From positions 18,786 to 82,785 of the IMG/VR virus record IMGVR_UViG_3300032307_000505: 64,000 bases of DNA; one strand, 5' to 3'. This stretch comes from a virus. Its lineage: Duplodnaviria; Heunggongvirae; Uroviricota; Caudoviricetes. A model generated the notes under the pieces. The model worked only from the letters and a program-made list of their open reading frames with translations, made no database searches and was not told where the DNA came from. Shown in pieces: positions 9,494 through 56,200 of the stretch (position 1 is its first letter; the number at the start of each line of letters is the position of its first letter). Both the position numbers and the translations under genes were made by a program.

Positions 9494-9532
9494 AATAAAT
9501 TCAAAAAACAATGAATAAATACAAAAAAATTG

Positions 9533-9607: not shown

Positions 9608-9698
9608 AAAAATTAGGTTTTGGTGTAAACACCCTACATGACTTTAACCTAAAAAGTACACTGAGTAATTTAAAACCCCCAGCGGTTTTTACTGAACC

Positions 9699-16174: not shown

Positions 16175-16699
16175 TTGTTCTTTTGCTAACTTGTAACCAT
16201 TAATAAAAGCGTTAATTGATACTTCATCTTCGTAATATCTTTCAGCAATTTCTTCAAGTGTTTCTTGTTTAGTTCCCACTGGTTTTAATAATGCAGTGTA
16301 GTCAAGTTCTTCTTTTGGAATGATGATTTTGTAACCACTATGGCTAACATAACCTTTTTTAATATAATCAAAAGTGTTAATTATTTCAACCTCCTCACAA
16401 CTTGGATTCTTAACAAACCATTCTAAAAACTCATCATCAATAGCTTGTACACCATCTTTGATTAAGTATTGGTCTGTTGTTAGAATGATTTCAGAATACT
16501 CGCCCTTACAAATATCCATAGTTGCACCACTTAATAATTGTCTTGAAACAATTTTACCATCTAACAGCTCAGTTTTACATAAAACTCGATTAATTAAAGC
16601 ATATACATTAGGTTTAATTTCTTCATAATTAGTGATGTAAATATTTTCTTTTATATCTTGTATGTTTCTCATATCATACATTCTGTGTACATTTTTCAT
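16160..16699 (-). CDS. hypothetical protein, paralog family A
   Basis: Shares the DGV..I..EFL.WFV.NP.C block with 4049..4774 and DYTALLKPVGTKQ with 14056..14367. Confidence 0.5.
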   Translation of the reverse strand: MKNVHRMYDMRNIQDIKENIYITNYEEIKPNVYALINRVLCKTELLDGKIVSRQLLSGATMDICKGEYSEIILTTDQYLIKDGVQAIDDEFLEWFVKNPSCEEVEIINTFDYIKKGYVSHSGYKIIIPKEELDYTALLKPVGTKQETLEEIAERYYEDEVSINAFINGYKLAKEQFKNK

Positions 16700-16756
16700 A
16701 TCAAAGGGTTTTTAAATTAAAAACGATTAACCTATACATCGTGAGGTGTTGATAAA

Positions 16757-16993
16757 CTACTTATTCAACTGCTCAATCCAACTTTGAATTAGTTGCTGTG
16801 TTTCAGCAGGTCTGCCCCTTTTAATTTCATTTAATAAAACTTCAAGAGAATGATTTAAAGGGTCTCTTAAAGGATTTTTAACTTGTTCGTTGTTTAAATT
16901 TGTGTTTTCCATAATCTTATTTGGTTTTATTTCTACAAAGATAAGACATATTTCTTGATTTCCAAATAAATCCATATACGTATTTTTACTCAT
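16757..16993 (-). CDS. hypothetical small protein (gene X; N-terminus duplicated at 14677..14769)
   Basis: 78-aa ORF. Confidence 0.45.
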   Translation of the reverse strand: MSKNTYMDLFGNQEICLIFVEIKPNKIMENTNLNNEQVKNPLRDPLNHSLEVLLNEIKRGRPAETQQLIQSWIEQLNK

Positions 16994-17037
16994 ATAAAAA
17001 CCCCCACCGGTAAGTGAGGGTTTAATTTTTAGAAAAA
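16925..17037. repeat. 113-bp near-identical repeat, copy 2
   Basis: See copy 1 at 14702..14815. Confidence 0.8.
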
Positions 17038-17622
17038 TAAATAATCATTCCATTCTTCCGGAATATGATGAACTTGTTTTATCATCATTAAATAGTGTGG
17101 TCGTCTTGGTTGAGGTATTTCTTTCCCATATTCCTCTAACGTTAAATTTGACTTCTCACTATTACATTTCTTACAAGCGGTTACCAAGTTGTCCCACGCG
17201 TCTTTACCTCCCTTAGATTGGGGTATTACGTGGTCTAATGTTAAAGTTTTTCTATTCTCACATCCACAATAAACACAAGTGTGATTATCTCTACGATAAA
17301 CATTCTCTCTACTTAAAGGAACTTTATGAATCGGTTGATTCACATATTTGAAAACCCTGATAATTGATGGTTTCTTTATATCTAACTCAGGATTGATTAG
17401 ATTAAATGATTCCGGATGTTCGGCAACAACACTCGCGTTACCCTTATAAGTTATTACAAAAGCCCTTTCAGTGTTTATGATAGACCTTGGCATATAACTT
17501 GAATCCAAAACCAATGTTTTTCCGTACTTACTCACGACTTTTGATTTATTAGTTAAACATTCTTTTTGTTCCCCCAGGTGGTATCGAACCACCTTCCCGA
17601 TATTAAAAGTATCGTGCTTCAC
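17029..17622 (-). CDS. HNH homing endonuclease
   Basis: CVYCGCENRKTLTLDHVIPQSKGGKDAWDNLVTACKKCNSEK is a canonical HNH motif. The annotated ATG overlaps tRNA-Lys (17569..17639), so the true start may be internal or non-ATG. Confidence 0.75.
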   Translation of the reverse strand: MKHDTFNIGKVVRYHLGEQKECLTNKSKVVSKYGKTLVLDSSYMPRSIINTERAFVITYKGNASVVAEHPESFNLINPELDIKKPSIIRVFKYVNQPIHKVPLSRENVYRRDNHTCVYCGCENRKTLTLDHVIPQSKGGKDAWDNLVTACKKCNSEKSNLTLEEYGKEIPQPRRPHYLMMIKQVHHIPEEWNDYLFF

Positions 17623-17639
17623 CTTAAAGCTTTAGGGGA
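17569..17639 (-). tRNA. tRNA-Lys (anticodon TTT)
   Basis: Acceptor TCCCCTA/TGGGGGA, D-arm GCTT-TAAGGTG-AAGC, anticodon arm CGATA-CTTTTAA-TATCG, T-arm GGTGG-TTCGATA-CCACC. Confidence 0.65.
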
Positions 17640-17722
17640 ATATTGAGCTCATTCTACCTTAACATTGGGCTCAAAATCTCACATATTTGAGCTTAATAAT
17701 TATGGTTCGTGAGCCACATTTG

Positions 17723-17796
17723 TAGGTGATATGAGACTCGAACTCATAACCTCCTCGGTATCAGCGAGGTGCTCCAACCAATTGAGCTAACCACCT
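17723..17796 (-). tRNA. tRNA-Ile (anticodon GAT)
   Basis: Acceptor AGGTGGT/ATCACCT, D-arm AGCTCAATTGGTTGGAGC, anticodon arm CCTCG-CTGATAC-CGAGG, T-arm ATGAG-TTCGAGT-CTCAT. Confidence 0.7.
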
Positions 17797-18344
17797 AAAT
17801 TATTTTTTGATATAAATTCTTCACGATATTTGTTTATCGTATCAATAACTTCATTCTTATATCGGGAATGAACGTATTGGTGATGTGTTGGACACAAAGG
17901 TATTAAATTTTCAATAGAATTGTTTTCGTGATTTTCATCATAATGATGAACTGAAACAATTTTATTTTCACCACAAATAATACATTCCGGTTTATGTTGT
18001 TCAAAACATATTCTTCTATACTTACTACTTGACCTAATATCTTTAATTTCTTTATAGTTTGGGTTATTTTCCCCACTTCTAAAATGAGTGTTAGAACACG
18101 AATGAGAACAAGTTATTTTTTGTCTTGGATTCCCTAATAAATCTTCAAATTCTTTTCCACAAACAGGACATTCCTTGATAACTCTTTTATAAATTAAAGG
18201 TTTAGACCTTAAATGAGAAATATCGATATTATTATTCTCAATTAATTTTTTCATTTTTCGTCTTGACGTTCCATTATCAAATCCAAAAATTTCTCTCACT
18301 GCTTGGGCAAGAGTTTCACTATTTTTAATTATATCTTCTTCCAT
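17787..18344 (-). CDS. HNH-family homing endonuclease with Cys-rich zinc-finger region
   Basis: CPVCGKEF...CSHSC...CIICGENKIVSVHHYDENHENNSIENLIPLCPTHHQYVH has the HNH core plus extra Cys pairs. Confidence 0.65.
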   Translation of the reverse strand: MEEDIIKNSETLAQAVREIFGFDNGTSRRKMKKLIENNNIDISHLRSKPLIYKRVIKECPVCGKEFEDLLGNPRQKITCSHSCSNTHFRSGENNPNYKEIKDIRSSSKYRRICFEQHKPECIICGENKIVSVHHYDENHENNSIENLIPLCPTHHQYVHSRYKNEVIDTINKYREEFISKNNLGG

Positions 18345-18414
18345 ATAGATAAATATCTAAGAAAGTCGTAAAAGTCGTGTTTGAACCAAATATTTTTATC
18401 ACGACTAACAATAG

Positions 18415-18493
18415 TCGGGTAGACAGGACTCGAACCTGCAATAAAATGTCCTCATCCCAAATGAGGCGACTTAGCCAATTAGTCTACTACCCG
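18415..18493 (-). tRNA. tRNA-Pro (anticodon TGG), unusually long variable region
   Basis: Acceptor CGGGTAG/CTACCCG perfect. D-arm GACT-aattggcta-AGTC. Anticodon arm CCTCA-TTTGGGA-TGAGG (G37). About 10-nt variable loop. T-arm GCAGG-TTCGAGT-CCTGT. Confidence 0.6.
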
Positions 18494-18511
18494 TATTTTA
18501 ATCTATTTCTG

Positions 18512-18598
18512 CGGAGAACAAGGGAATCGAACCCTCACCGGTTTTACCCGGAACATCTTAGCAGGATGCCACTACAAACCAATATTAGACTATTCTCC
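18512..18598 (-). tRNA. tRNA-Ser (anticodon GCT)
   Basis: Acceptor GGAGAAT/GTTCTCC, discriminator G, anticodon arm GCATC-CTGCTAA-GATGT, long variable hairpin CCGG-GTAAAA-CCGG, T-arm GAGGG-TTCGATT-CCCTT. Confidence 0.65.
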
Positions 18599-18674
18599 AT
18601 TTTGTAGGATATCGCTTAACCTACGATGTTGATATCATTACACACCTTCGATATTACTATCAGCGATTTTTTTG

Positions 18675-18746
18675 TAGTCTCTGAGGGAATCAAACCCCCG
18701 CCCTAATATCCGTATTATTAAGTGCTATTCATTACACCAAGAGACC
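18675..18746 (-). tRNA. tRNA-Arg (anticodon ACG)
   Basis: Acceptor GGTCTCT/AGAGACT, anticodon arm TAATA-ATACGGA-TATTA, T-arm GGGGG-TTTGATT-CCCTC (T-loop TTTGATT, C56 replaced). Confidence 0.5.
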
Positions 18747-18803
18747 ATTTTGATGTCTTTCCATCAGTCATCCCTATTATTTGGTAAGGGTGGAACATCC
18801 TTG

Positions 18804-18918
18804 TAGTCAGTGTAGGATTTGAACCTACATTTTCAACAAAGGCCTTTATTGAAAAACTTACACTGTTTTTATAGAGTGGTGTCGTCCCACAGTAGCGTCT
18901 ACCAATTCCGCCAACTGA
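18804..18918 (-). tRNA. over-length (about 115 nt) class-II tRNA-like gene, Tyr-like anticodon loop
   Basis: Canonical class-II 5' end GGTCAGT-TG-GCGGAATTGGTAGACGC (as in E. coli Leu/Tyr) and T-arm GTAGG-TTCAAAT-CCTAC with matching 3' acceptor ACTGACT. About 25 extra nt lie between the D-arm and a candidate anticodon arm AAACA-GTGTAAG-TTTTT (GTA). The variable hairpin is 22 nt. Confidence 0.35.
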
Positions 18919-19021
18919 CCAATTTGAGGTTGAGAAAACCTCTGTATTGTAAGAACTGTGTACGGGTCATTCTTCTTTTCGCCCCGTATAGTATTCCCTT
19001 TCTCACCGGGAACAACACATT

Positions 19022-19225
19022 TTACTTCCATTGAGTTTTTCGGTTATACTTCCAAGTTTTGTAACTTCTGTATTTTATTGATGGGTGACCTTTTTTGAAA
19101 TTTAATCCCTCATCCCAATACATTGGAAATTCAAACTTTAACCAAATTACTCGGTAATCTTTTGAACAAGTCGCCTTGTTCAGTTTCATTCTGTTTGTGT
19201 TTACACTCATAATCTCTGAGTCCAT
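19022..19225 (-). CDS. hypothetical small protein
   Basis: 67-aa ORF between tRNA genes; weak. Confidence 0.3.
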   Translation of the reverse strand: MDSEIMSVNTNRMKLNKATCSKDYRVIWLKFEFPMYWDEGLNFKKGHPSIKYRSYKTWKYNRKTQWK

Positions 19226-19261
19226 TGTTTAGTGGACCTCAAAGATTGTCTAATACTTTTT

Positions 19262-19519
19262 TCATAACCGTAATTTATAAACTCGTTTATATTCGTCCAA
19301 CGCTGACTTCAGATTCTCAATACATTCTCTGTAATTTACATCATCACCTAAATTAAACCTTTCATTTTCTTGTTCTCGTTTGAATAGAACTTTTAACGAA
19401 TTATCAATGTTGGATAAAATGTCCAAGTAAATCAACTCTTTGTCTTTGGATTTCTTTAAATCAAATTTCAAATCTACAATTAGACCTTCTAATTCTTCAA
19501 TTTTTTCATTTTCATCCAT
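19262..19519 (-). CDS. hypothetical small protein
   Basis: 85-aa ORF between tRNA genes. Confidence 0.4.
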   Translation of the reverse strand: MDENEKIEELEGLIVDLKFDLKKSKDKELIYLDILSNIDNSLKVLFKREQENERFNLGDDVNYRECIENLKSALDEYKRVYKLRL

Positions 19520-19533
19520 AACAATTAAATTTG

Positions 19534-19606
19534 GGTGACTAAGGAGAATCGAACTCCCATTTACAGAACCACAATCTATCGTGTTAACCGTTACACTATA
19601 GCCACC
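19534..19606 (-). tRNA. tRNA-His (anticodon GTG) with G-1
   Basis: Extra 5' G(-1) opposite discriminator C73, acceptor GTGGCTA/TAGTCAC, anticodon arm ATAGA-TTGTGGT-TCTGT, T-arm GGGAG-TTCGATT-CTCCT. Confidence 0.7.
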
Positions 19607-19714
19607 ATATTTAAACCTATCAATGTGGGTTTGAGATGTACCCTTTTCAACCCGCTTTCACACCCATCACTCCTAAAGAGCTGTCAGTATCGGATACCAC
19701 ATTTAAGGTTTTTG

Positions 19715-19786
19715 TACTCTAGCAAGGAATTGAACCTTGTTCTCATTCTTATCAGGAATGTGTGCTAACCATTCTACTACAAGAGC
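19715..19786 (-). tRNA. second tRNA-Ile(GAT)-like gene with one acceptor mismatch
   Basis: Anticodon arm CATTC-CTGATAA-GAATG, T-arm CAAGG-TTCAATT-CCTTG, acceptor GCTCTTG/CTAGAGT with a T6:T67 mismatch. Confidence 0.45.
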
Positions 19787-19863
19787 AATTTTACCCCACT
19801 TCACCGGGTTAATGGACCGGATGCCATATGGGAGTGGGGGTTTCCTGTTATATCAGGACTCCG

Positions 19864-19936
19864 TGGTATCGGTTGGAATCGAACCAACGACACCTTGGTC
19901 TTCAACCAAGTGCTCTACCGACTGAGCTACGATACC
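19864..19936 (-). tRNA. tRNA-Phe (anticodon GAA)
   Basis: Acceptor GGTATCG/CGATACC, D-arm AGCTCAGTCGGTAGAGC, anticodon arm CTTGG-TTGAAGA-CCAAG, T-arm GTTGG-TTCGATT-CCAAC. Confidence 0.7.
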
Positions 19937-19996
19937 GGCTCCTGTATACCTTTGCAAAGGTGGTGGTAGTACAGACACTATAATTCCACTATTCTG

Positions 19997-20068
19997 CTCT
20001 CCCGGGAGGACTCGAACCTCCATAAATTGATTAACAGTCAACCGTAATAACCTTTATACGACAGAAGA
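19997..20068 (-). tRNA. tRNA-Asn (anticodon GTT)
   Basis: Acceptor TCTTCTG/CGGGAGA (two G:U), discriminator G, anticodon arm GTTGA-CTGTTAA-TCAAT, T-arm GGAGG-TTCGAGT-CCTCC. Confidence 0.6.
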
Positions 20069-20197
20069 ATTTTTGACTACTACTTAGACTCTTCCGTTCC
20101 GTAATAGTAGTCCAAGGCGTTACGCACCCATCTAGTAACTTTACTTCTCTTGAGTCCGGGTAAGGCCTTACCAACTCAGGGGTTGTTTCCTTGTTTG

Positions 20198-20270
20198 TGG
20201 GTCCTAAGAGAATTGAACTCTTTCCTTATGTTCTTCAGACATACGTACAGACCACTTATACCAAAGACCC
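20198..20270 (-). tRNA. second GAA-anticodon tRNA (Phe-like)
   Basis: Acceptor GGGTCTT/AGGACCC, anticodon arm TATGT-CTGAAGA-ACATA, T-arm AAGAG-TTCAATT-CTCTT. Confidence 0.5.
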
Positions 20271-20408
20271 AAATATGATAATGTTGGAGTACCCATCTCG
20301 CTCCAATCTTAACTGCTTATTCGTAGTTTTACGAGGCCTCGGCAGGGGGTGCAGAATTCTTGAACCTATCTTGGATTGTCGACATCCGAGAGATAGAGAA
20401 AACCATTA

Positions 20409-21056
20409 TCATTTTATTTTTCTACCTAACCTCCAACCGTTAGGTATGTTATCACCTTTAAATATTTTTTTATTCTCAACATCATTAGTAATCCAACAAG
20501 TACCATATTGAGAGTTATTTTTACCTTTTTGATTTATTGAACTTTTTTTACCAATAAGTTTTTTACTACTTTCTTTATGTTTTTTACCGTTCCAATCCGA
20601 CTTGAAATTTTTATATTTTTCAGGATTTGTTTTTAACCTCAGTAATTGATTTTCTGAATGTTTTTTACGTAAGTTTTCTGTAAACAATAAATCAGTTTTT
20701 CTCAATTCCTTTTGTTTTAAAATTCCAGCCTTTGAACATTTTAACATATGTTCTTTATTTAAAAACCCACCATTACCACCTTCTTTAAGGTTCATACATT
20801 TCCCATCACTAATTAGTTCTTTGTTTACTATTTCTTTCTCTCTAAGAATCAATTTTTCTCTATTTGGTAGATATTCAAGTATTTCTTTTGTGTGGTTTTC
20901 AACCCCGTATTTCCTAATACTATGTCTTAACATTGTTCCACTCCCCATATAACCATCCTCAATATTAGTTGTGGAGTGCATCCCAACATACCATCTTCCC
21001 GTTACATTACAAGTTGTTTTGTAAATGTAATGTATGTTTGATTTTTTTCTTGCCAT
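20409..21056 (-). CDS. GIY-YIG homing endonuclease
   Basis: N-terminal IHYIYKTTCNVTGRWYVGMHS...YMGSG is the GIY-YIG module; C-terminal Lys-rich DNA-binding-like tail; sits inside the tRNA island. Confidence 0.7.
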   Translation of the reverse strand: MARKKSNIHYIYKTTCNVTGRWYVGMHSTTNIEDGYMGSGTMLRHSIRKYGVENHTKEILEYLPNREKLILREKEIVNKELISDGKCMNLKEGGNGGFLNKEHMLKCSKAGILKQKELRKTDLLFTENLRKKHSENQLLRLKTNPEKYKNFKSDWNGKKHKESSKKLIGKKSSINQKGKNNSQYGTCWITNDVENKKIFKGDNIPNGWRLGRKIK

Positions 21057-21115
21057 TTCAGTTTCCTTTAATAATAAATATCTCAGAAAACTGAAAAGTA
21101 CAAAAAAGTTTATGG

Positions 21116-21196
21116 TGGAAAGTAGTGGACTCGAACCACTCCCGTGAGGACCTGATTTACAGTCAGGTTGCCGTATCCGAACGACTTTTACTTTCC
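21116..21196 (-). tRNA. tRNA-Tyr (anticodon GTA), CCA encoded
   Basis: Acceptor GGAAAGT/ACTTTCC perfect, discriminator A + genomic CCA, anticodon arm CCTGA-CTGTAAA-TCAGG, class-II variable arm, T-arm AGTGG-TTCGAGT-CCACT. Confidence 0.7.
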
Positions 21197-21452
21197 AATT
21201 TTTGTACCTCGTGATGGTTATGCTCCACCTCCATTTGTATGTAAAACAAATACGCTCCTATTACGCCAACGAGGCTGGTGGATGAATTATTTTTTTTATA
21301 GTAGAATTCGTCAACCTCAAAACTACTTTGTACCGAGAAATGGTAACGCTCCATTCTAAAGTCAGATATGAGCCGTCTTTGGTCCTTGACCTCTCGGCAT
21401 TTTGGTGGACATAGATTCATCATCTATTCTTGGGTTTCCACCGAACCCGTTG
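21197..21452. other. GC-enriched non-coding spacer with an internal repeat, function unknown
   Basis: No credible ORF (track ORFs here overlap tRNAs). Two related units at about 21207..21262 and 21337..21370 (tttgtacc..atggtta.gctcca..). Confidence 0.3.
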
Positions 21453-21524
21453 AGGTGATAGTAGGATTCGAACCCACGTAACAGATTTTGCAGACCTGTG
21501 CCTAAGCCACTCGACCATATCACC
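21453..21524 (-). tRNA. tRNA-Cys (anticodon GCA)
   Basis: Acceptor GGTGATA/TATCACC, discriminator T, anticodon arm CAGGT-CTGCAAA-ATCTG, T-arm GTGGG-TTCGAAT-CCTAC. Confidence 0.65.
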
Positions 21525-21531
21525 ATTTTTG

Positions 21532-21603
21532 TTACCCCTAATGGAATCGAACCACTCCCGCATGGACCAAAACCATGTGTACTAACCGATATACGAAGGG
21601 GCA
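21532..21603 (-). tRNA. tRNA-Gln (anticodon TTG)
   Basis: Acceptor TGCCCCT/AGGGGTA, anticodon arm CATGG-TTTTGGT-CCATG, T-arm AGTGG-TTCGATT-CCATT. Confidence 0.6.
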
Positions 21604-21609
21604 AAGTTG

Positions 21610-21697
21610 CGGAAGGAGTGGGACTCGAACCCACACGTGTGTTACCACCAACGGTTTTCAAGACCGCGACCCGTAGACCAACTTGGCTTACCCTTCC
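21610..21697 (-). tRNA. tRNA-Ser (anticodon TGA)
   Basis: Acceptor GGAAGGG/TCCTTCC, discriminator G, anticodon arm GCGGT-CTTGAAA-ACCGT, long variable arm, T-arm GTGGG-TTCGAGT-CCCAC. Confidence 0.65.
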
Positions 21698-24018: not shown

Positions 24019-24199
24019 AATAATTTAATTTAATTTTGACAAAAATATAAAATAAAATTGACACTCCAAACTTTTTTGAAGATATTTATTAGTATGATTA
24101 TGACCAATTAATAATTGGGGCTTTTGGAAATCATACAGATATGGGAATAATGGTGTATATAGATGTGGAATATCTTAAACCATAAACAAATTAATATTA

Positions 24200-24228
24200 A
24201 AAGGGGTTCTTACCCCTTTTTTTATTGA
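24200..24228. terminator. bidirectional terminator-like hairpin
   Basis: AAGGGG ttctta CCCCTT flanked by A/T runs, between convergent/divergent genes. Confidence 0.5.
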
Positions 24229-24261: not shown

Positions 24262-24594
24262 ATGGAAAATTATACAAACCCAGAAAAAGGGGACATGAAA
24301 CAAGACGTTCAAGATTTATTGAACGCATCATTAATCTTCGCGAGAGCGTTAGGTTTAATCTTTCAAGAAGGTGAAGGAATAGTAGTAGATGTTAAAGGAG
24401 ATGTAATGTTAAAAGACGATACAAAAAAAGTTATTGTATTCCAACATCAAAATCAAATTCATATCTACAAATGTGAAGAAGATTTAGAAGAAGGAACTGC
24501 CGTTAATATGAATAATGATGAGCCTGAAGAAACTGACCCATCAAATATCGATGTAACAGATTCTGAAGTGGTATCACCAACAGACGAACAATAA
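24262..24594 (+). CDS. hypothetical acidic protein
   Basis: 110-aa ORF immediately upstream of the carbamoyltransferase pair. Confidence 0.45.
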   Translation: MENYTNPEKGDMKQDVQDLLNASLIFARALGLIFQEGEGIVVDVKGDVMLKDDTKKVIVFQHQNQIHIYKCEEDLEEGTAVNMNNDEPEETDPSNIDVTDSEVVSPTDEQ

Positions 24595-24613
24595 AAAAAC
24601 AAACAAAAATTAA

Positions 24614-26278
24614 ATGAGAGTATTAGGATTTTCGGTAGGTCACGACAAAGGTGCGGTTATCATAGAAAACGGAAAAGTAGTTGTTGGGATTACCCAAGAA
24701 AGACTTTCAAGGATAAAACACGACGGTGCATATCAAGGGGGATTAATTCCCGTTGAATCCATAAACTATTGTTTAAACGCTTTGGGAATAACTTATCATG
24801 ATATCAATTTATTTGTATATAGTACAACAGAAATTGTTGATGATGTTGATTCTCAATTTTTTAGTAGATATAGTGGGTTAAATAGAAAAAAATTAAAGTT
24901 TTTACCTCATCATTTAGCCCACGCGTATTCTACTTTTTTTAGTTCAGGATTTGAAGAATCCGCAGTTATTGTTGCGGATGCGTCAGGTAGTATTTTGAGT
25001 TATAAAAACAAATTACATAAATGGTACGATGTAGATAGAACAGAATTAGACCCTGAAGAAGATTGGACCGAAGGTATTTCATTATTTCATTTTACAAAGA
25101 ATAACTATAATGAAGTATACAAAAAATGGATTAAATATCCGGTTCCAATTGATACTGATGAAGGTGTTTCGGTTGGTACTGTTTATTCCACAGGTTCTCT
25201 TCAATTAATTTACGAACCAAACGAACATACGTGGCCTGCGGGTAAATTAATGGGATTGGCGTCTTACGCGGATAAATCTATTGTTGACGAAGCTCCTGAA
25301 TATGTACAAGAATTAGATAATGATATTTTTATACCAAATAACACAATTTACCCAAAAGTAACTTGGCAATCAGATTTCTTTTCAAAATCGTGTGTTGCAG
25401 GAATTTATCAAAGAGAACAAGAACGTGCGTCATTAATTTTAGCAAAAATTGCCAAAAATTTAACAAAATCAAAAAATGTTTGTGTCGCGGGAGGGTCATT
25501 CTTAAATTGTAATTCAAACGAAATTATTTTAAATTCAGGTTTATATGATAATTGTTATTTCTTAGCTCCAAGTGATGATAGTGGGATTCCATTGGGATGT
25601 GCTTGGTATGCGTATCAACAACTTACAGATATTGTTTCCGTTGAACCAATGTCTCCGTATTTTGGTAAAAAATATTCAAGACAAGAAATTATAACTGCAA
25701 TTAATCATAACCCTCATTTAAATGTTATTGAATACCAAGATGAAGATACTTTAATTAAAGAAGTAACACATTGGTTAACACAAAATAGAGTTATTGGTTG
25801 GTTCCAAGGTGGTTCTGAAATTGGTCCAAGAGCATTAGGTAATCGTTCAATATTGGCATCCCCAATTCAAAAATGGATGACAGGTCATATTAATGGAGAT
25901 ATTAAACGAAGAGAATGGTATCGTCCTTTTGCACCTGCGGTTTTATTTGACCATCAATCAGATATTTTTGAATCTGATGTTTATTCACCTCATATGTTAG
26001 TAACAACAACCGTAAAAGAAGAATGGAGAAATAAAATCCCTGCAGTTACTCATGTGGATAATTCGGCTAGACATCAATCGGTTACTAAAGAAAATAATCC
26101 AAGGTTTTATTCATTAATTAATGAATTTTATAACCAAACAGGTGTACCAGTATTACTTAACACAAGTTTTAATGGACCTCACGAACCAATTGTTGAGACC
26201 CCTCAAGAGGCAATTAATACATTTATTTCAAACAAACTTGACATATTAGTCATTGATAATTTTATTATAATCAAGTAA
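24614..26278 (+). CDS. NodU/CmcH-family carbamoyltransferase (copy 1)
   Basis: N-terminus MRVLGFSVGHDKGAVIIENGKVVVGITQERLSRIKHDG matches the conserved carbamoyltransferase N-terminal domain; HHLAHAYS and the C-terminal domain are also present; 554 aa. Confidence 0.75.
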   Translation: MRVLGFSVGHDKGAVIIENGKVVVGITQERLSRIKHDGAYQGGLIPVESINYCLNALGITYHDINLFVYSTTEIVDDVDSQFFSRYSGLNRKKLKFLPHHLAHAYSTFFSSGFEESAVIVADASGSILSYKNKLHKWYDVDRTELDPEEDWTEGISLFHFTKNNYNEVYKKWIKYPVPIDTDEGVSVGTVYSTGSLQLIYEPNEHTWPAGKLMGLASYADKSIVDEAPEYVQELDNDIFIPNNTIYPKVTWQSDFFSKSCVAGIYQREQERASLILAKIAKNLTKSKNVCVAGGSFLNCNSNEIILNSGLYDNCYFLAPSDDSGIPLGCAWYAYQQLTDIVSVEPMSPYFGKKYSRQEIITAINHNPHLNVIEYQDEDTLIKEVTHWLTQNRVIGWFQGGSEIGPRALGNRSILASPIQKWMTGHINGDIKRREWYRPFAPAVLFDHQSDIFESDVYSPHMLVTTTVKEEWRNKIPAVTHVDNSARHQSVTKENNPRFYSLINEFYNQTGVPVLLNTSFNGPHEPIVETPQEAINTFISNKLDILVIDNFIIIK

Positions 26279-26281
26279 TTT

Positions 26282-27871
26282 ATGAGTACAATTTATGGAT
26301 TCTTTACCGGGTCACATAGTCCGTCGATTGCGTTAGTTAAAGATGGTAAAATAACATTTTGTATTGAAGAGGAGAGATTAACTCGTATAAAATCCGGAGA
26401 TAATTACGACATTAATTGTGAATTATCTTGTGTTGAAGCGGAAAACTTTACCGGATTAAAAATAACCGATGCTGATTATCGAATATTTGCAAATCCAACA
26501 CCTGACGCATTCGCTCGTAGAATCACCAATAATAACTACGAAAAAGTTAGTCACCATACTGCACACGCATATGGGGCATATTATACGAGCGGTATGAAAG
26601 GAAAATCCATTACAATCACATACGATGGTGGAGGGGAAAGTACCGTAATGAAAGTTTATCTGTGTGATGATGGGAAAATGAGTTTAATACAAAGTCACCC
26701 ATTAGCGTCATTTGGTAGTTTATCACATGTTTGGGGTTTTAGTACCGCATCAATGAAAGGATATGACCAATATGGCGAAGGTGTGTGGAAAATGTGTAAA
26801 GATGAAGGAAAATTAATGGGAATGGGTCCAAATGGATATTATGATAAAAAAATTTATAAAATGTTATCATCTGTAATTAATTATAAAAATTTTAGATTCT
26901 ATCCATCCGCATCATCAAGTAAAACTAGATTCTTGGGTGATATGTTGAAAATAAATGGTTATTTTGACACCCAAGAAAAAATGGAAATTTATTCCTATAA
27001 CCTACAAAAAATAACTGAGGATTTATTTCTAACATTTATTAACGATTTACATAATTTATACCCCGAATATAAACAACTTTGTTTTGGAGGTGGATTATTC
27101 GCAAATGTTAAAATGAATCAAAAAATTAACGAGCTTGATTGGGTTGATGAAATCTATATTTACCCCCCAATGGGTGATGAAGGTTTATCGTTGGGTGCTT
27201 GTATTCATAAAGCGGTTGAGTTAGGTGAAATTACAGAACCATTTGAATTTAATGATGTTTATTTTGGAAAATCATATAATAATGATGAAATTTATGAAAT
27301 ATCCAAAAATTATAATTTCACAAGAAAAGAATATATCCCAAGTGAAATTGCAAAAAACATCAATGAAGGAGAAATTATTGGTTGGTTCCAATCCGGTTCA
27401 GAATATGGACCAAGAGCTCTTGGGGCAAGAAGTATTTTGGTTAGACCAACAGAAGTCTCAACACATAAAGTTTTGAACCAACGATTAAATCGATATGACA
27501 CAATGCCATTCGCTCCAATTATCATGGAAGAATATTTTGACAATGTATTTACACCTTCAAAATCAAAATATACATCAGAGTTTATGACTCTATGTTATAA
27601 TACAAATGAGGAATGGATTGATAGAATTCCATCAGTAATTCAAAAATCAGATAAAACCGCAAGACCTCAAATTGTTAAACATTCAAAAATTCCTAAATTT
27701 TGGGGGATATTAAATGAATATCATAAATTATCGGGAATCCCATTATTGTTGAATACCTCATTTAATTCTCATAACCAACCTATTATAGAAAACCCACAAC
27801 AAGCATTTGAATCATTAAAACTTGGAGTGATTGATAAATTAATTATTGAAGATTATGTATATTTCTCTTAA
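26282..27871 (+). CDS. NodU/CmcH-family carbamoyltransferase (copy 2, divergent paralog)
   Basis: MSTIYGFFTGSHSPSIALVKDGKITFCIEEERLTRIKSGDNY, HHTAHAYGAY; same domain order as copy 1; 529 aa. Confidence 0.7.
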   Translation: MSTIYGFFTGSHSPSIALVKDGKITFCIEEERLTRIKSGDNYDINCELSCVEAENFTGLKITDADYRIFANPTPDAFARRITNNNYEKVSHHTAHAYGAYYTSGMKGKSITITYDGGGESTVMKVYLCDDGKMSLIQSHPLASFGSLSHVWGFSTASMKGYDQYGEGVWKMCKDEGKLMGMGPNGYYDKKIYKMLSSVINYKNFRFYPSASSSKTRFLGDMLKINGYFDTQEKMEIYSYNLQKITEDLFLTFINDLHNLYPEYKQLCFGGGLFANVKMNQKINELDWVDEIYIYPPMGDEGLSLGACIHKAVELGEITEPFEFNDVYFGKSYNNDEIYEISKNYNFTRKEYIPSEIAKNINEGEIIGWFQSGSEYGPRALGARSILVRPTEVSTHKVLNQRLNRYDTMPFAPIIMEEYFDNVFTPSKSKYTSEFMTLCYNTNEEWIDRIPSVIQKSDKTARPQIVKHSKIPKFWGILNEYHKLSGIPLLLNTSFNSHNQPIIENPQQAFESLKLGVIDKLIIEDYVYFS

Positions 27872-28484
27872 CGAAGAAAAAATTATTTTAACTTTTAACC
27901 CATATCCTAATTTAAAAATTTCAGGACCGGACGAACTTTATTATGTTGAATTACGAGAATACCCAAAAGATGACGACCAATCTTTATTTGTTGAAGGTTA
28001 TAAAATATTAGGTGATGGAGGCGTTTTTAATTTACCAATTGAATTTCATTTTGATTTTGAAATTTCTGTTTTTAAATTTATTGATAACTATGGAATTAAA
28101 AAAATATTCACTCATCGATTTAATGATTATGGAAAACAAGTTCTTTTTAATTTAGAGACATCTAATTATGAAGAATGTTTGTTATGGGTTTCAAAAGTCG
28201 AGGAATACTCAAAAATTCATGGTTGTAAAATGCATTTAAACACTAACTTTGATGAAATAAACAAAAGATACGTGTCATATTATCAAGTTGATGGTATTGA
28301 TTATTACAAAACATATAATATTGGTAGATACCCTAAAAATAGTACCGATTTTAGAACTATTGACCCAAGAATGGAAGGTCTAATTTGGTTTGGAAATTGG
28401 AAAAAATTTTGGTCTTATCAACACCCTAGATTGTGGACTAATTTGTCAAGTGAAGAAATAATTGATGATATTTTGGCACTTTAA
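27846..28484 (+). CDS. hypothetical protein
   Basis: 212-aa ORF overlapping the end of carbamoyltransferase 2. Confidence 0.45.
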   Translation: MKIMYISLNEEKIILTFNPYPNLKISGPDELYYVELREYPKDDDQSLFVEGYKILGDGGVFNLPIEFHFDFEISVFKFIDNYGIKKIFTHRFNDYGKQVLFNLETSNYEECLLWVSKVEEYSKIHGCKMHLNTNFDEINKRYVSYYQVDGIDYYKTYNIGRYPKNSTDFRTIDPRMEGLIWFGNWKKFWSYQHPRLWTNLSSEEIIDDILAL

Positions 28485-28519: not shown

Positions 28520-29266
28520 ATGATGAACGTAGGACAAGAATTTCAAAGTTATTACACAAAACATTTAGGTAAACCATCTTTGGATTTACACAACTTCAAC
28601 AACCACATTCAAAATTCAATGACTCCTTACATTTTGGAGGAAAGAGAAATGAGAGTAACCCAAATGGACATTTTCTCTCGTTTAATGATGGATAGAATAT
28701 TATGGGCTTCAGGTCCGGTTGACGACAGAATGGGTGATATCATCCAATCACAACTTATTTTCTTAGACAACTTGGATAAGAAAAAAGACATTAATTTATA
28801 TCTACAAACTCCGGGTGGAAGTGTTTTAAGTGGATTAGGTATTAGAGACACTATGAACTTTATTAACGCGGATGTAGCAACCACTAATATTGGTATGTGT
28901 GCATCTATGGGTTCAGTATTATTATCTTCAGGGACAAAAGGTAAGAGGTCATCTTTAATTTTCTCAAAAGTAATGACTCACATGGTTTCTCACGGAACAC
29001 AGGGTAATGTTCAAGACACAAGAATTAACCAACTTGAAGCAGAAAAATACAATTATTTGTTATTCAAAATATTGGCAGAGAATTGTGGTAAGACATTTGA
29101 AGAAATGTTAGAATCATCAAGAAATGATAAATGGTTCAATTCTGATGAAGCATTACAATTTGGTCTAATTGATAAAATTGTTGGTGTGGAGAAAAATCAA
29201 TCAATGTCAGATATGATGGTTGGATTTGACGATTATTATGAAAAAGAAATTCTTAAAAGAAAATAA
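28520..29266 (+). CDS. clpP: ClpP-family serine peptidase (possibly prohead protease)
   Basis: ClpP fold motifs: LYLQTPGGSVLSGLGIRDTM, catalytic Ser in GMCASMGS, His in THMVSHGTQG, downstream Asp. Confidence 0.7.
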   Translation: MMNVGQEFQSYYTKHLGKPSLDLHNFNNHIQNSMTPYILEEREMRVTQMDIFSRLMMDRILWASGPVDDRMGDIIQSQLIFLDNLDKKKDINLYLQTPGGSVLSGLGIRDTMNFINADVATTNIGMCASMGSVLLSSGTKGKRSSLIFSKVMTHMVSHGTQGNVQDTRINQLEAEKYNYLLFKILAENCGKTFEEMLESSRNDKWFNSDEALQFGLIDKIVGVEKNQSMSDMMVGFDDYYEKEILKRK

Positions 29267-35257: not shown

Positions 35258-35890
35258 ATGTTTTTATCAATATTTATTCCTATATTTTTATCACAAAAAC
35301 ATATTAAAATGAGATTTAATTCATTAACAATTGATGATTTCTACGCAGACCCAATGCAAGTCAGAGAATTTGCACTTAAACAAGAATTTAAAGTTAGAGG
35401 AAATTACCCAGGTCAAAGAACTGTGTCATTTTTATCTGACCCAATAAAACAAAAATTAAGAGATATTCTTTATCCATTTGCCGGTGAAATAACCAATTGG
35501 GGTGGAGAATATACAGGTTCTTTTCAATATACCACAGCCGCGGATAGGTCATGGATTCATTCTGATTCAACAACCGATTGGGCTGCAGTTTGTTATTTAA
35601 CACCTAACGCACCTGTAACCGCAGGTACCGGAATTTTTAGACATAAAGAAACAGGGTGGACTCATTTTGATTATAAAAGACAAAATGACCCTGAATATAT
35701 GAAACAAGCACCTCCAGGAGATGAATGTCAAGATTATACTAAATGGGAAATGGTTGATAGAGTTGGAAATGTATTCAATCGTCTAATAATGTATAGAGCA
35801 GACAATTATCACGTATCGTTAGACTATTTTGGGAAAGACCTTAATGATGGTAGATTATTTCAAGTATTCTTTTTTAATACTGAACATTAA
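35258..35890 (+). CDS. hypothetical protein
   Basis: 210-aa ORF (a start at MRFNSL, 35309, is an alternative). Confidence 0.45.
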   Translation: MFLSIFIPIFLSQKHIKMRFNSLTIDDFYADPMQVREFALKQEFKVRGNYPGQRTVSFLSDPIKQKLRDILYPFAGEITNWGGEYTGSFQYTTAADRSWIHSDSTTDWAAVCYLTPNAPVTAGTGIFRHKETGWTHFDYKRQNDPEYMKQAPPGDECQDYTKWEMVDRVGNVFNRLIMYRADNYHVSLDYFGKDLNDGRLFQVFFFNTEH

Positions 35891-36348
35891 CATTTATGAT
35901 TTAATATTAAGTCAGGATTAAGTTCTTCAATTATTTTCACAACACCATCAATACAATAACAAGTCTCCAAAGTTGTTATTGTTTTTTCAAACTTTTTAAA
36001 TCCAATAACAACAGGGTGAAAACAAGTATATTTACTTTTAGGGTTAAAGTTAAAATTTGGGTTCCACAAATTACTATATGAAATCCCTAATTCATGTAAA
36101 AAATCAATAGAATCCTCAGTATAAGATTCAAAATAAGGTATGTCAATTTCTTTTAATAAAAGATTAAGATGATATAAACTATCTTTATTATTCCCTTCAT
36201 AAATTGACCGAAGAGTTAAATCAGTATCATTTTGATTTTTTTGTAAAAAATGCCAAAGAAAATAATCATGTTCTTTGGCAAGTTTATTAAAATCTTTATG
36301 AGTTACTTTGATATTTTCCATTATCTGAAATTTGCACCACATAACCAA
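35887..36348 (-). CDS. hypothetical protein
   Basis: 153-aa ORF. Confidence 0.4.
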   Translation of the reverse strand: MVMWCKFQIMENIKVTHKDFNKLAKEHDYFLWHFLQKNQNDTDLTLRSIYEGNNKDSLYHLNLLLKEIDIPYFESYTEDSIDFLHELGISYSNLWNPNFNFNPKSKYTCFHPVVIGFKKFEKTITTLETCYCIDGVVKIIEELNPDLILNHKC

Positions 36349-36920
36349 GTCACTAATGACTTTCTAACTCCTGAAGTTAATGGAGTGACTCTATGTAATA
36401 AAAATGATGGGAAAAAACATAGAGTACCTAATCCTTTTGGTACCTCAATTATATTTCCACCTGGATTCATTTGTAATACACCACCTTCATATTCTTCAGG
36501 TGACGATAATTGTAAAACACAAGATAATTTTCTATTTGAAATACCGGGTCCTAAATCAACATGCCAGTCATAGTGTCCACCATTTCCGTAATATTTTGTA
36601 AATTGTAATGGGTCTTGATAATTCCATATGTCAAAATTCCACATTTCTTTATTCGCAATTTTAGCATAATTTGCAATTTTCTCATATATCCAAGCCGTTT
36701 CTTCCGTTTCATCAATCCAAGAAATATCACTCACTCTATATTCTGAAACCCCTACTTCATTATCATGACCAACAGTGGTTCCGGGTGTTATTGGTAAATT
36801 TTCACCAATTTCAATTATTTTAAGAATTTCTTCTGGTGTGAACGCGTTAGTAAAATAATAATAATTCATGTGATTAATATTACTTCTATGTTCCGGTAAA
36901 AAATGATTTGATACTGACAT
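36321..36920 (-). CDS. 2OG-Fe(II) oxygenase (prolyl-4-hydroxylase-like)
   Basis: HYDWHVD (H-x-D iron ligands), distal LLHRV histidine and RKSLVTW (2OG-binding Arg) in the canonical order. Confidence 0.65.
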   Translation of the reverse strand: MSVSNHFLPEHRSNINHMNYYYFTNAFTPEEILKIIEIGENLPITPGTTVGHDNEVGVSEYRVSDISWIDETEETAWIYEKIANYAKIANKEMWNFDIWNYQDPLQFTKYYGNGGHYDWHVDLGPGISNRKLSCVLQLSSPEEYEGGVLQMNPGGNIIEVPKGLGTLCFFPSFLLHRVTPLTSGVRKSLVTWLCGANFR

Positions 36921-36978
36921 TTGTGTTTTTTTTAGTTATATTAAGTATAATTAATATTAATAATAATTTCAACACAAT

Positions 36979-54023: not shown

Positions 54024-54024
54024 G

Positions 54025-56198: not shown

Positions 56199-56200
56199 CT

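What the first reader, a model, noticed from the sequence alone, without database searches (positions are those of the whole stretch)
24262..27871. Tandem pair of divergent carbamoyltransferases in a phage
Two full-length NodU/CmcH-type O-carbamoyltransferases (554 and 529 aa, clearly paralogous but divergent) lie back to back after a small acidic ORF. In cells these enzymes carbamoylate sugars, antibiotics or nucleosides. In a phage that also encodes nucleotide-sugar epimerases, a GT17 transferase and a ThyA-family hydroxymethylase-like enzyme, they are candidates for carbamoylation of a glycan or of a hydroxymethyl-pyrimidine DNA base.
Basis: partly seen in the sequence, partly recalled or inferred. 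Interest (0 to 1): 0.6.

Follow-up and report, generated by a model that had tools for sequence, protein, structure and literature searches.

The report
Two phage carbamoyltransferases, likely glycan-directed
A widespread group of large Flavobacterium-type phages carries two intact but only distantly related carbamoyl-adding enzymes in one operon, and the evidence points to decoration of a sugar or glycoprotein rather than of the phage DNA, so this is a modest variant of a known enzyme class.

Summary
Two full-length NodU/TobZ-type O-carbamoyltransferases (CT1 24614-26278, CT2 26282-27871; 29% identical) follow a small acidic ORF, and both keep all catalytic residues.

They are not a recent duplication. 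In a tree of 145 viral enzymes each forms its own clade, with 0% support as sisters. Across 19 related loci, small ORF + CT1 + ClpP are always present. CT2 and the next gene (ORF212) are gained or lost together (14 both, 5 neither).

The DNA-base idea is disfavoured. Both enzymes lie outside the characterised 5hmC-carbamoyltransferase clade (95% bootstrap) and lack its signature residues. They also lack its hallmark neighbour: 36 of 37 members of that clade have an Asp177 ThyA within 4 kb. The window's ThyA is a dUMP-type thymidylate synthase 16.6 kb away.

Related viral enzymes are repeatedly fused or adjacent to glycosyltransferases, sugar epimerases, sulfotransferases and FkbM methyltransferases. 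The most likely function is O-carbamoylation of a glycan or glycoconjugate; the target is unknown.

The parts
24262..24594 (+). Small ORF (110 aa): conserved ~70-aa core (helix plus beta strands) followed by a variable acidic tail. Always found directly upstream of CT1.
   Evidence: ORF call. Present in all 19 lineage loci, including the five that lack CT2. No Pfam, PHROG or PADLOC assignment. The single-sequence AF2 model was poor (pLDDT 51).
24614..26278 (+). CT1: class III (TobZ/NodU-type) O-carbamoyltransferase, fully canonical. This is the core gene of the module.
   Evidence: Pfam, NCBIfam and PHROG hits. PDB hits to carbamoyltransferase 7XB6 and TobZ at E ~1e-59. Catalytic H10, H99, H103, D122, D322 present; W-G-R and K-R-R motifs. 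Own clade with 93% bootstrap.
26282..27871 (+). CT2: second class III O-carbamoyltransferase from a different viral clade. Forms a two-gene cassette with ORF212.
   Evidence: Pfam. PDB hits to NovN and TobZ at E 5e-45/1e-41. H12, H91, H95, D115, D299 present; W-G-R, but N-R-M where TobZ has K443/R445/R. Clade bootstrap 95%; sister to CT1 0%. Exactly this segment plus ORF212 (26270-28481) is missing in L001.
27855..28484 (+). ORF212 (209 aa from the ATG; overlaps the CT2 stop by 17 nt): stand-alone N-terminal half (beta-barrel plus GT-B N-lobe) of a TibC/Aah-type glycosyltransferase. It has no donor-binding lobe and no iron finger.
28520..29266 (+). ClpP-family protease gene, co-oriented and always immediately downstream of the module. 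Probably in the same transcription unit; no functional link is shown.
   Evidence: Pfam CLP_protease E 1e-50. PHROG head maturation protease. Adjacent in 19 of 19 loci.

Best explanation
The locus is a conserved five-gene, same-strand block: small ORF, CT1, CT2, ORF212, ClpP. It belongs to an abundant lineage of large (about 170-320 kb) phages of Flavobacterium-type Bacteroidota.

CT1 and CT2 are both catalytically competent class III O-carbamoyltransferases. By analogy with TobZ and GdmN, each should make carbamoyl-AMP from carbamoyl phosphate and ATP in its YrdC-like domain. Each should then transfer the carbamoyl group to a hydroxyl in its iron-containing Kae1-like domain. This step is inferred from conserved residues.

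They are two separately acquired enzymes, not a fresh duplication. They most likely carbamoylate two different hydroxyls or two different acceptors on a sugar-containing substrate such as a glycan, glycolipid or glycoprotein. From my own knowledge, NodU and NolO act this way on different positions of one Nod-factor sugar.

CT1 works with the small conserved ORF. CT2 works with ORF212, a TibC-type glycosyltransferase reduced to its barrel and acceptor-side lobe. I infer that ORF212 acts as an acceptor-recognition or scaffolding partner for CT2.

Shown: the anatomy, intact active sites, clade placement, the co-inheritance pattern and the homology of ORF212. Inferred: the substrate class and the partner roles. 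The actual target (host surface polysaccharide, virion glycoprotein or other) is unknown.
For: Domain architecture and catalytic residues are intact in both copies, and all 145 viral homologues examined keep the H-H-H-D-D set.

Both are about 530-555 aa and lack the GdmN-type dimerisation domain. That is the TobZ-like form, which PMC9633730 associates with polar acceptors.

The module is conserved down to 62-64% identity on contigs up to 321 kb.

Co-inheritance: small ORF + CT1 + ClpP in 19 of 19 loci; CT2 and ORF212 both present in 14 and both absent in 5, across at least two sub-lineages.

ORF212 is the TibC N-half. Its family's 'module 1' relatives are fused to complete TibC-like enzymes and FkbM methyltransferases.

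A CT2-supergroup CT overlaps the start of a complete TibC homologue (E 1e-52 to TibC) in L266/L267. A CT2-like gene is followed by an ORF212-like gene in L111, beside a GT9-CT fusion and a sulfotransferase-like protein.

Other viral CTs: a GT1+GT9 protein lies upstream in L097; L121 is an FkbM-CT fusion; the tandem CT pairs in L096 and L106 are followed by NAD sugar epimerases; the L128 pair is preceded by a GT9-like protein.

Neighbour censuses found glycan-tailoring families and no ThyA or dCMP deaminase: viral and cellular (GT2, GT1, methyltransferases, OpgC, acyltransferase_3).

The window itself encodes GT17, two sugar epimerases and two 2OG-oxygenase-like proteins.
Against: No substrate was identified. 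The immediate neighbours (ClpP, glucosaminidase, DUF6915, DUF6878) are not glycan-biosynthesis genes. The window's sugar genes are 9-19 kb away.

The sugar-related signal around canonical viral CTs is a minority of a mixed neighbourhood, roughly 10% of 125 flanking genes.

The key associations (L266, L111, L097) come from lineages only about 38% identical to CT2. L266 and L267 are one lineage, so independent observations are few.

ORF212 lacks the donor lobe and no complete TibC-like gene is in the window, so its role is conjecture.

CT2 shares the N-R-M motif with the 5hmC clade, although 9 of 14 CT2-clade members have K-R-M.

Only 64 kb of a genome of at least 170 kb was seen.
Confidence: 0.6

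Rival explanations
1. DNA (or RNA) base hypermodification. One or both enzymes carbamoylate 5-hydroxymethylcytosine or 5-hydroxymethyluracil in phage nucleic acid or in the dNTP pool, like the characterised phage 5hmC carbamoyltransferase.
For: The enzyme family has a proven nucleic-acid-modifying branch (PMC8670742). The window has a ThyA homologue with an unusual folate-site motif (IWNGD) and two insertions. CT2 shares the N-R-M motif with that branch. Only part of the genome was inspected.
Against: CT1 is 22% identical to the characterised enzyme, and both copies fall outside its clade (95% bootstrap; CT2+5hmC grouping 0%). Both have W-G-R rather than x-C-T at TobZ 408/421/423. 36 of 37 members of the true clade have an Asp177 ThyA within 4 kb, many also with dCMP deaminase, MazG or a dNMP kinase; none of the W-G-R enzymes do. 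The window's ThyA keeps Cys146, His147 and Asn177, best matches true thymidylate synthases (E 2e-72), and is 60.5% identical over full length (tblastn) to the thymidylate synthase of a cultured Flavobacterium phage. It lies 16.6 kb away. No dCMP hydroxymethylase, TET/JBP, 5-HMUDK or dNTP-pool genes are in the window. The characterised enzyme did not act on 5hmdUTP.
Confidence: 0.08
2. Carbamoylation of a soluble small molecule (a metabolite, nucleoside or antibiotic-like compound) as an auxiliary metabolic or host-takeover function unrelated to glycans.
For: All biochemically characterised cellular relatives act on small molecules such as tobramycin, novobiocin, geldanamycin and Nod factors. 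Many viral CT neighbourhoods give no glycan hint. PHROG files the family under 'moron, auxiliary metabolic gene and host takeover'.
Against: The window has no biosynthetic cluster for such a compound. CT2's specific coupling to a TibC-type protein-glycosyltransferase module in three viral lineages is hard to explain this way. The cyanophage literature's 'pyrimidine synthesis' assignment conflates this family with aspartate carbamoyltransferase.
Confidence: 0.15
3. Direct protein modification. CT2, guided by the TibC-like half (ORF212), O-carbamoylates Ser/Thr on a protein substrate, possibly connected with the adjacent ClpP protease. Alternatively, CT1 modifies the small ORF product.
For: TibC/Aah enzymes act on protein serines, and their barrel plus N-lobe faces the acceptor. 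ClpP is always adjacent. From my own knowledge, the HypF branch of the superfamily carbamoylates a protein (HypE).
Against: No NodU/TobZ-type enzyme is known to act on a protein side chain. The only cysteine in the conserved core of the small ORF is not invariant: it is absent in L066 and L068. The recurrent fusions are to sugar-acting enzymes.
Confidence: 0.07
4. tRNA or RNA modification. The Kae1/YrdC-type domains act on the phage's own tRNAs, which are encoded just upstream.
For: The two domains are homologous to the t6A enzymes TsaD/Kae1 and TsaC/Sua5. 25 tRNA genes lie 2.6-15 kb upstream. The 5hmC enzyme also acted on RNA oligonucleotides.
Against: Both proteins score as NodU/TobZ-type, not TsaD or TsaC. 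The tRNA block is on the opposite strand and separated by unrelated genes. Homologous CTs occur in many phages in quite different contexts.
Confidence: 0.03
5. One copy is a catalytically dead or regulatory paralogue, so the pair is a single enzyme plus a pseudoenzyme.
For: CT2 in this window has Asn at the position of TobZ Lys443 and Met in place of the Arg of RPFAP.
Against: All iron ligands and the general base are kept in both copies. The experimentally active 5hmC enzyme also has N-R-M. Both clades are conserved at full length over deep divergence.
Confidence: 0.03

Closest known systems
Class III O-carbamoyltransferases (TobZ, NodU/NolO, CmcH, NovN, GdmN)
   Same: Same two-domain architecture, a Kae1-like N domain with the His/His/Asp/Asp iron site and general-base His plus a YrdC-like C domain. 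Best sequence matches in the PDB are at E 1e-41 to 1e-59. The length matches monomeric TobZ.
   Different: Only 31-36% identical to any cellular homologue found. Phage-encoded, with two non-sister copies in one operon, each with its own small partner gene. No natural-product cluster is present and the acceptor is unknown.
Phage 5-hydroxymethylcytosine carbamoyltransferase (Yang et al., eLife 2021, PMC8670742)
   Same: Same superfamily, phage-encoded, same catalytic residues. CT2 shares the N-R-M variant of the YrdC-like motif.
   Different: Separate clade (95% bootstrap). W-G-R rather than I/L/V-C-T at the three discriminating positions. Not adjacent to an Asp177 ThyA-family hydroxymethylase, dCMP deaminase or MazG. 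CT1 is 22% identical to the characterised enzyme; group mean identities to the clade are 26-27%.
Cyanophage/pelagiphage 'Nol-like carbamoyltransferases' (PHROG 1601; e.g. S-SSM7, P-SSM2, HTVC008M)
   Same: Same PHROG family. Multiple copies per genome also occur there (S-SSM7 has 4 matching places; P-SSM2 and HTVC008M have 2). Function is experimentally unknown. They co-occur with 2OG-Fe(II) oxygenases.
   Different: Only 28-32% identical. Different host phylum. The conserved small ORF-CT1 and CT2-half-TibC arrangement was seen only in this lineage and, for the CT2 part, in L111 and L266.
TibC/Aah bacterial autotransporter heptosyltransferases (BAHT family) and their phage homologues
   Different: ORF212 stops at the inter-lobe linker. 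It has no ADP-heptose-binding C-lobe, no beta-hairpin thumb and no four-cysteine iron finger, and the SLGD motif is degenerate. It has an extra conserved insertion (GLIWFGNW...FWSYQHP). It is partnered with a carbamoyltransferase rather than an autotransporter.

Membership tests
Class III (TobZ/NodU/CmcH-type) O-carbamoyltransferase | Kae1-like N-terminal domain plus YrdC-like C-terminal domain in one chain | tested here: met
   PF02543 plus PF16861 in both CT1 and CT2, with full-length PDB matches.
Class III (TobZ/NodU/CmcH-type) O-carbamoyltransferase | Iron site His-His-Asp-Asp (TobZ H114, H118, D137, D338; GdmN H133, H137, D156, D333) | tested here: met
   CT1 H99, H103, D122, D322. CT2 H91, H95, D115, D299.
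Class III (TobZ/NodU/CmcH-type) O-carbamoyltransferase | General-base histidine near the N-terminus (TobZ H14, GdmN H27) | tested here: met
   CT1 H10 and CT2 H12.
Class III (TobZ/NodU/CmcH-type) O-carbamoyltransferase | YrdC-like K-x-R ... RPFAP motif (TobZ K443/R445) | tested here: inconclusive
   CT1 has K-R-R. CT2 here has N-R-M, while its clade has K-R-M in 9 and N-R-M in 5 members. The active 5hmC enzyme also has N-R-M, so the Lys is not obligatory.
Class III (TobZ/NodU/CmcH-type) O-carbamoyltransferase | ATP- and carbamoyl-phosphate-dependent O-carbamoylation activity | not testable with these tools
   Requires enzyme assays.
Phage 5hmC carbamoyltransferase clade | Phylogenetic membership of the clade that contains the characterised enzyme | tested here: not met
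   NJ tree of 145 sequences with 100 bootstraps. The clade is monophyletic at 95% and excludes CT1 and CT2; CT2+5hmC grouping gets 0%.
Phage 5hmC carbamoyltransferase clade | Differentially conserved residues at TobZ W408/G421/R423 | tested here: not met
   The characterised enzyme has I-C-T and its clade has (I/L/V)-C-T. CT1 and CT2 have W-G-R like TobZ.
Phage 5hmC carbamoyltransferase clade | Gene neighbourhood with a ThyA-family hydroxymethylase (Asp at E. coli position 177), often with dCMP deaminase or MazG | tested here: not met
   36 of 37 clade members have an Asp177 ThyA within 4 kb. None of the 19 CT1/CT2 loci do. The window's ThyA is the Asn177 type and lies 16.6 kb away.
Phage 5hmC carbamoyltransferase clade | Activity on 5hmC in DNA, RNA or dNTPs | not testable with these tools
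   Requires biochemistry or LC-MS.
BAHT (TibC/Aah) heptosyltransferase (for ORF212) | N-terminal flattened beta-barrel followed by the GT-B N-lobe | tested here: met
BAHT (TibC/Aah) heptosyltransferase (for ORF212) | Catalytic base Asp110 in the conserved (S)LGD motif | tested here: inconclusive
   The aligned position is Glu (Glu or Asp across the family), but the SLG context is lost: NYEE.
BAHT (TibC/Aah) heptosyltransferase (for ORF212) | Donor-binding C-lobe (T226, K230, R286, W305), beta-hairpin thumb and Cys4 iron finger | tested here: not met
   ORF212 ends at the inter-lobe linker (209 aa against 406 aa). None of these elements is present.
Pyrimidine hydroxymethylase (for the window's ThyA homologue) | Asp at E. 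coli TS position 177 (dCMP specificity) and a changed residue 147 | tested here: not met
   The window protein has Cys146, His147 and Asn177. Its best PDB hits are true thymidylate synthases at E 2e-72. dUMP-hydroxymethylase activity cannot be excluded from sequence alone.

The most novel reading that the evidence does not exclude
CT2 and ORF212 form a two-component enzyme. The acceptor-recognition half of a TibC-type protein O-glycosyltransferase has been kept, after loss of its sugar-donor lobe, to steer a carbamoyltransferase onto a specific glycoprotein or protein-linked sugar, such as a virion or host surface protein. This would be a previously undescribed O-carbamoyl decoration in phage biology. 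CT1 plus the small ORF would add a second carbamoyl mark.
Probability: 0.2. Interest if true: 0.7.

Novelty: new variant of a known kind. Interest (0 to 1): 0.4.

Why it matters
NodU-type carbamoyltransferases are among the commonest 'auxiliary' genes of marine and freshwater phages. Apart from the 5hmC branch, their function has never been determined, and genome papers often mis-assign them to pyrimidine synthesis.

This locus gives a concrete handle. It supplies residue, clade and neighbourhood criteria that separate DNA-modifying copies from the rest. It also shows a repeated physical link between one clade (CT2-type) and TibC-type protein glycosyltransferases. If the link is functional, it points to carbamoylated glycoconjugates made during infection by an abundant, uncultured lineage of large Flavobacterium-type phages. 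That would bear on phage adsorption, superinfection exclusion or virion surface chemistry.

If the link is not functional, the pair is simply two more members of a known family.

Tried and rejected
- Megablast of the locus against cultured phages found nothing.
- CT2 close relatives in GTDB species genomes: none. The closest cellular relatives of CT1 are only 31-36% identical and taxonomically scattered, so no donor lineage could be named.
The single-sequence model was too poor to search (pLDDT 51). There were no Pfam or PADLOC hits and only a marginal PHROG hit.
- The sigma-70 promoter scan was uninformative (38 found against 34 expected, and Bacteroidota promoters differ).
- Cyanophage CT neighbourhoods (S-SSM7, S-RIM44) gave no functional clue. 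The S-RIM44 'thymidylate synthase' neighbour is ThyX, not a hydroxymethylase.
- The two genes upstream of the L266 CT have no solved relatives, so I make no claim about them.
- I considered and rejected a recent tandem duplication (0% bootstrap as sisters).
- I considered and rejected a role for the small ORF as an S-carbamoyl acceptor, because its cysteine is not invariant.
- The literature holds no report of carbamoylated DNA-linked glycans.


Full report
**Observation**

Both large proteins carry the Carbam_trans_N and Carbam_trans_C domains well above Pfam thresholds. Both also match the NodU model and PHROG 1601 'Nol-like carbamoyltransferase'. They are 29% identical (E 1e-55).

The gene spacing is tight. 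There are 19 nt between the small ORF and CT1 and 3 nt between CT1 and CT2. CT2 overlaps the next gene (ORF212, 27855-28484) by 17 nt, and ClpP (28520-29266) starts 35 nt after ORF212.

**What the element is**

The window is from a low-GC (about 31%) phage. It has 25 tRNA genes, HNH and GIY-YIG endonuclease ORFs and a ClpP/prohead-protease-like gene.

The host is probably a Flavobacterium-type member of the Bacteroidota. The ThyA homologue is 60.5% identical over full length to that of Flavobacterium phage vB_FspM_immuto_3-5A. A 627-aa protein also carries a T9SS C-terminal sorting domain.

No cultured phage matches the locus at the DNA level. CT1 and CT2 each have more than 120 protein clusters at 62% identity or above in metagenomes, on contigs up to 321 kb. 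This is therefore an abundant uncultured lineage of large phages.

**Anatomy across relatives**

I examined 19 loci of the lineage (window, L001-L008, L059-L068). The small ORF, CT1 and ClpP are always present and in the same order. CT2 and ORF212 are either both present (14 loci) or both absent (5 loci, from at least two sub-lineages).

A direct DNA comparison shows that window 26270-28481, which is exactly CT2 plus ORF212, is missing from L001 between CT1 and ClpP. The block therefore consists of a core (small ORF + CT1) and a two-gene cassette (CT2 + ORF212).

The small ORF has a conserved core of about 70 aa and a variable acidic tail. I could not assign it a fold or family.

**Are both enzymes functional?**

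Solved class III carbamoyltransferases define the catalytic residues. The iron ligands are GdmN H133, H137, D156, D333 (TobZ H114, H118, D137, D338). The general base is GdmN H27 (TobZ H14) (PMC9633730).

CT1 has H10, H99, H103, D122 and D322. CT2 has H12, H91, H95, D115 and D299. All 145 viral homologues I aligned keep this set.

In the YrdC-like domain CT1 has the canonical K-x-R...RPFAP. CT2 here has N-x-R...MPFAP. Its clade varies (K-R-M in 9 members, N-R-M in 5), and the experimentally active 5hmC enzyme also has N-R-M, so this does not argue for inactivity.

Both proteins lack the C-terminal dimerisation domain of GdmN. They resemble monomeric TobZ, the form linked to polar acceptors.

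**Testing the DNA-base hypothesis**

A phage carbamoyltransferase that converts 5hmC to 5-carbamoyloxymethylcytosine has been characterised (PMC8670742). That paper gives three refinements: a distinct clade, co-occurrence with ThyA-family hydroxymethylases, and differential residues at TobZ W408, G421 and R423.

I collected 47 IMG/VR loci with a profile of that enzyme and 80 with a profile of canonical viral CTs. I then scored signatures, neighbours and phylogeny.

| Feature | 5hmC clade | CT1 | CT2 |
|---|---|---|---|
| Residues at TobZ 408/421/423 | (I/L/V)-C-T | W-G-R | W-G-R |
| Asp177 ThyA within 4 kb | 36 of 37 | none | none |
| Clade bootstrap | 95% | 93% | 95% |
| Identity to the characterised enzyme | n/a | 22% | not computed pairwise |

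- A typical 5hmC-clade locus (L012) has CT, a MazG-like gene, a dNMP kinase, an Asp177 ThyA homologue and dCMP deaminase in a row. In the cross-tabulation 14 clade members have dCMP deaminase nearby.
- No enzyme with the W-G-R signature has an Asp177 ThyA nearby.
- CT2+5hmC and CT1+CT2 groupings each get 0% bootstrap support.
- The characterised enzyme is far more distant from solved O-carbamoyltransferases (E 8e-16) than CT1 (6e-59) or CT2 (5e-45).

The window's ThyA homologue (44451-45644) keeps Cys146, His147 and Asn177. Its best matches are genuine thymidylate synthases (E 2e-72). It lies 16.6 kb from the pair.

Its oddities are 'IWNGD' in place of 'IW(D/N)EW' and two insertions. These are shared with the cultured immuto phage enzyme. 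They do not make it a dCMP hydroxymethylase. A dUMP-hydroxymethylase activity cannot be excluded from sequence, but nothing supports it.

No other hypermodification genes were found in the window.

**What ORF212 is**

ORF212 belongs to a lineage-restricted family of about 210 aa with no Pfam domain. It does hit the N-terminal part of the TibC/Aah heptosyltransferase model (E 9e-9).

- The model also matches two large phage glycosyltransferases, one annotated Aah/TibC.
- TibC consists of a beta-barrel (1-97) and a GT-B catalytic domain. The N-lobe holds the catalytic base Asp110. The C-lobe binds ADP-heptose via T226, K230, R286 and W305. A hairpin thumb and a Cys4 iron finger are also present (PMC4358343).

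An exhaustive profile search found complete TibC-like proteins of 370-400 aa. It also found long fusions in which an ORF212-like 'module 1' precedes a complete TibC-like enzyme, sometimes with an FkbM-type methyltransferase.

Alignment shows that ORF212 corresponds end to end to the barrel plus N-lobe and stops at the inter-lobe linker ('DILAL*' against 'DILGLEFKE...'). The SLGD motif is degenerate ('NYEE', acid retained), and ORF212 has an insertion that it shares with module 1. HHalign gives 98.3% probability, E 1e-14 over 170 columns.

The window contains no complete TibC-like gene.

**Links between carbamoyltransferases and glycan enzymes**

| Locus | Arrangement |
|---|---|
| L266/L267 (another viral lineage) | A CT nearest to the CT2 clade (38-39% identity) overlaps the start of a complete TibC homologue (E 1e-52 to TibC, GD motif intact). 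This is the same junction geometry as CT2/ORF212. |
| L111 | A GT9-carbamoyltransferase fusion and a sulfotransferase-like protein precede a CT2-like gene and an ORF212-like gene. |
| L097 | A GT1+GT9 protein precedes the CT. |
| L121 | The CT is fused to an FkbM methyltransferase. |
| L096, L106 | Tandem CT pairs followed by NAD-dependent sugar epimerases. The L106 pair is preceded by a DUF6445 protein, the family also present in the window. |
| L128 | The CT pair is preceded by a GT9-like protein. |

A census of 125 genes flanking other canonical viral CTs found no ThyA or dCMP deaminase. It did find epimerases, GT9, GT1, sulfotransferases and 2OG oxygenases within a mixed background.

A similar census around the closest cellular homologues found GT2, GT1, methyltransferases, OpgC and acyltransferase_3.

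The window itself encodes GT17, two sugar epimerases and two 2OG-oxygenase-like proteins. The DUF6445 / 2OG oxygenase / GT17 trio is conserved 5-8 kb downstream in relatives.

**Interpretation**

The best-supported reading is that CT1 and CT2 are active O-carbamoyltransferases acting on sugar hydroxyls of a glycan or glycoconjugate. They probably act at two positions or on two acceptors. CT2 is probably guided or scaffolded by the half-TibC protein, and CT1 works with the small ORF.

The anatomy, intact active sites, clade placement, co-inheritance and ORF212 homology are shown. The substrate class and partner roles are inferred by association. Some of that association comes from lineages only about 38% identical, and the immediate neighbours in this phage are not glycan genes. 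I put this reading at about 0.6.

The rivals are DNA-base carbamoylation (about 0.08), a soluble small-molecule target (0.15), direct protein carbamoylation (0.07), tRNA modification (0.03) and a pseudoenzyme copy (0.03).

**Novelty and interest**

Phage NodU-type carbamoyltransferases are well known, sometimes in several copies per genome: S-SSM7 has 4 matching places, P-SSM2 and HTVC008M have 2. Tandem pairs recur on IMG/VR contigs. The pair as such is therefore a new member of a known kind.

What is new is the modular structure: a small ORF-CT1 core plus a CT2-half-TibC cassette. The repeated coupling of CT2-type enzymes to TibC-type glycosyltransferases is also new. I found no description of either in the literature. 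Some genome papers still attribute these genes to pyrimidine synthesis.

I rate it a new variant of a known kind, of moderate interest.

Noticed in passing
window 9532-21697 (- strand): A block of 25 tRNA genes is interspersed with two HNH endonuclease ORFs (17029-17622, 17787-18344) and a GIY-YIG/SegE-like ORF (20409-21056). This resembles the homing-endonuclease-rich tRNA regions of T4-like phages.
   Followed up: partly
window 43600-45644: The ThyA homologue (44451-45644) overlaps the stop of an NAD-dependent sugar epimerase/dehydratase (43600-44454), which is an odd pairing. ThyA has 'IWNGD' instead of the conserved folate-site 'IW(D/N)EW' and two insertions (about residues 205-240 and 306-370). 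All of these are shared with Flavobacterium phage immuto_3-5A. Whether this changes the chemistry is unknown.
   Followed up: partly
window 51734-58410: A run of signal-peptide proteins. It includes a cohesin-like protein with a T9SS C-terminal sorting domain (51734-53617), a Ser/Thr/Asn/Gly-rich 485-aa protein (54741-56198) and a C-type lectin-domain protein (57436-58410). The phage appears to use the host type IX secretion system.
   Followed up: partly
window 24199-24220: A perfect 9-bp-stem hairpin, AAAAGGGGTTCTTACCCCTTTT, flanked by T/A runs. It reads as a bidirectional terminator-like element but sits in the divergent intergenic region about 40 nt upstream of the small ORF, where no convergent transcripts are expected.
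   Followed up: no
window 35258-38220; also L001, L005, L007: A DUF6445 protein (2OG-oxygenase-like; its PHROG label is 'minor coat protein'), a 2OG-Fe(II) oxygenase on the opposite strand and a GT17 glycosyltransferase form a trio. The trio is conserved 5-8 kb downstream of the carbamoyltransferase module in relatives. A DUF6445 protein also flanks an unrelated viral CT pair (L106).
   Followed up: partly
window 19-999 and 28520-29266: A ClpB/ClpA-type AAA+ D2 module ORF at the window start and a ClpP-family protease. ClpP's best phage matches are huge uncultured phages (LR745206, 59% identity) and Lak phages. It is unclear whether this is an ATP-dependent protease system or a prohead protease.
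   Followed up: partly
window 41697-42776 and 5018-5581: A T4 Rnl1-type RNA ligase and a HAD_SAK_2 ('Swiss Army Knife RNA repair') domain protein. Together with the large tRNA set, these suggest a tRNA-repair capability.
   Followed up: no
window 38247-39197 (- strand): A 316-aa extremely acidic (Asp/Glu-rich) protein with a CxxC...CxxC motif and no family assignment.
   Followed up: no
L114, L115, L120, L131 (IMG/VR): The nearest outgroup of the CT2 clade (signature L-G-R with E/K-R-M) sits in a different conserved context, directly after a split, divergent family-B DNA polymerase and near a MazG-like gene. These CTs give no glycan hint and might have another substrate.
   Followed up: partly
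P0383, P0402, P0447 (protein clusters): Multidomain proteins of 830-910 aa that combine an ORF212-like degenerate half, a complete TibC-like glycosyltransferase and a C-terminal FkbM-type methyltransferase, some with an N-terminal GT1-like domain. These are single-chain glycan or glycoprotein tailoring machines. Homologous TibC-like genes are very common on viral contigs (at least 345 hits in IMG/VR).
   Followed up: partly
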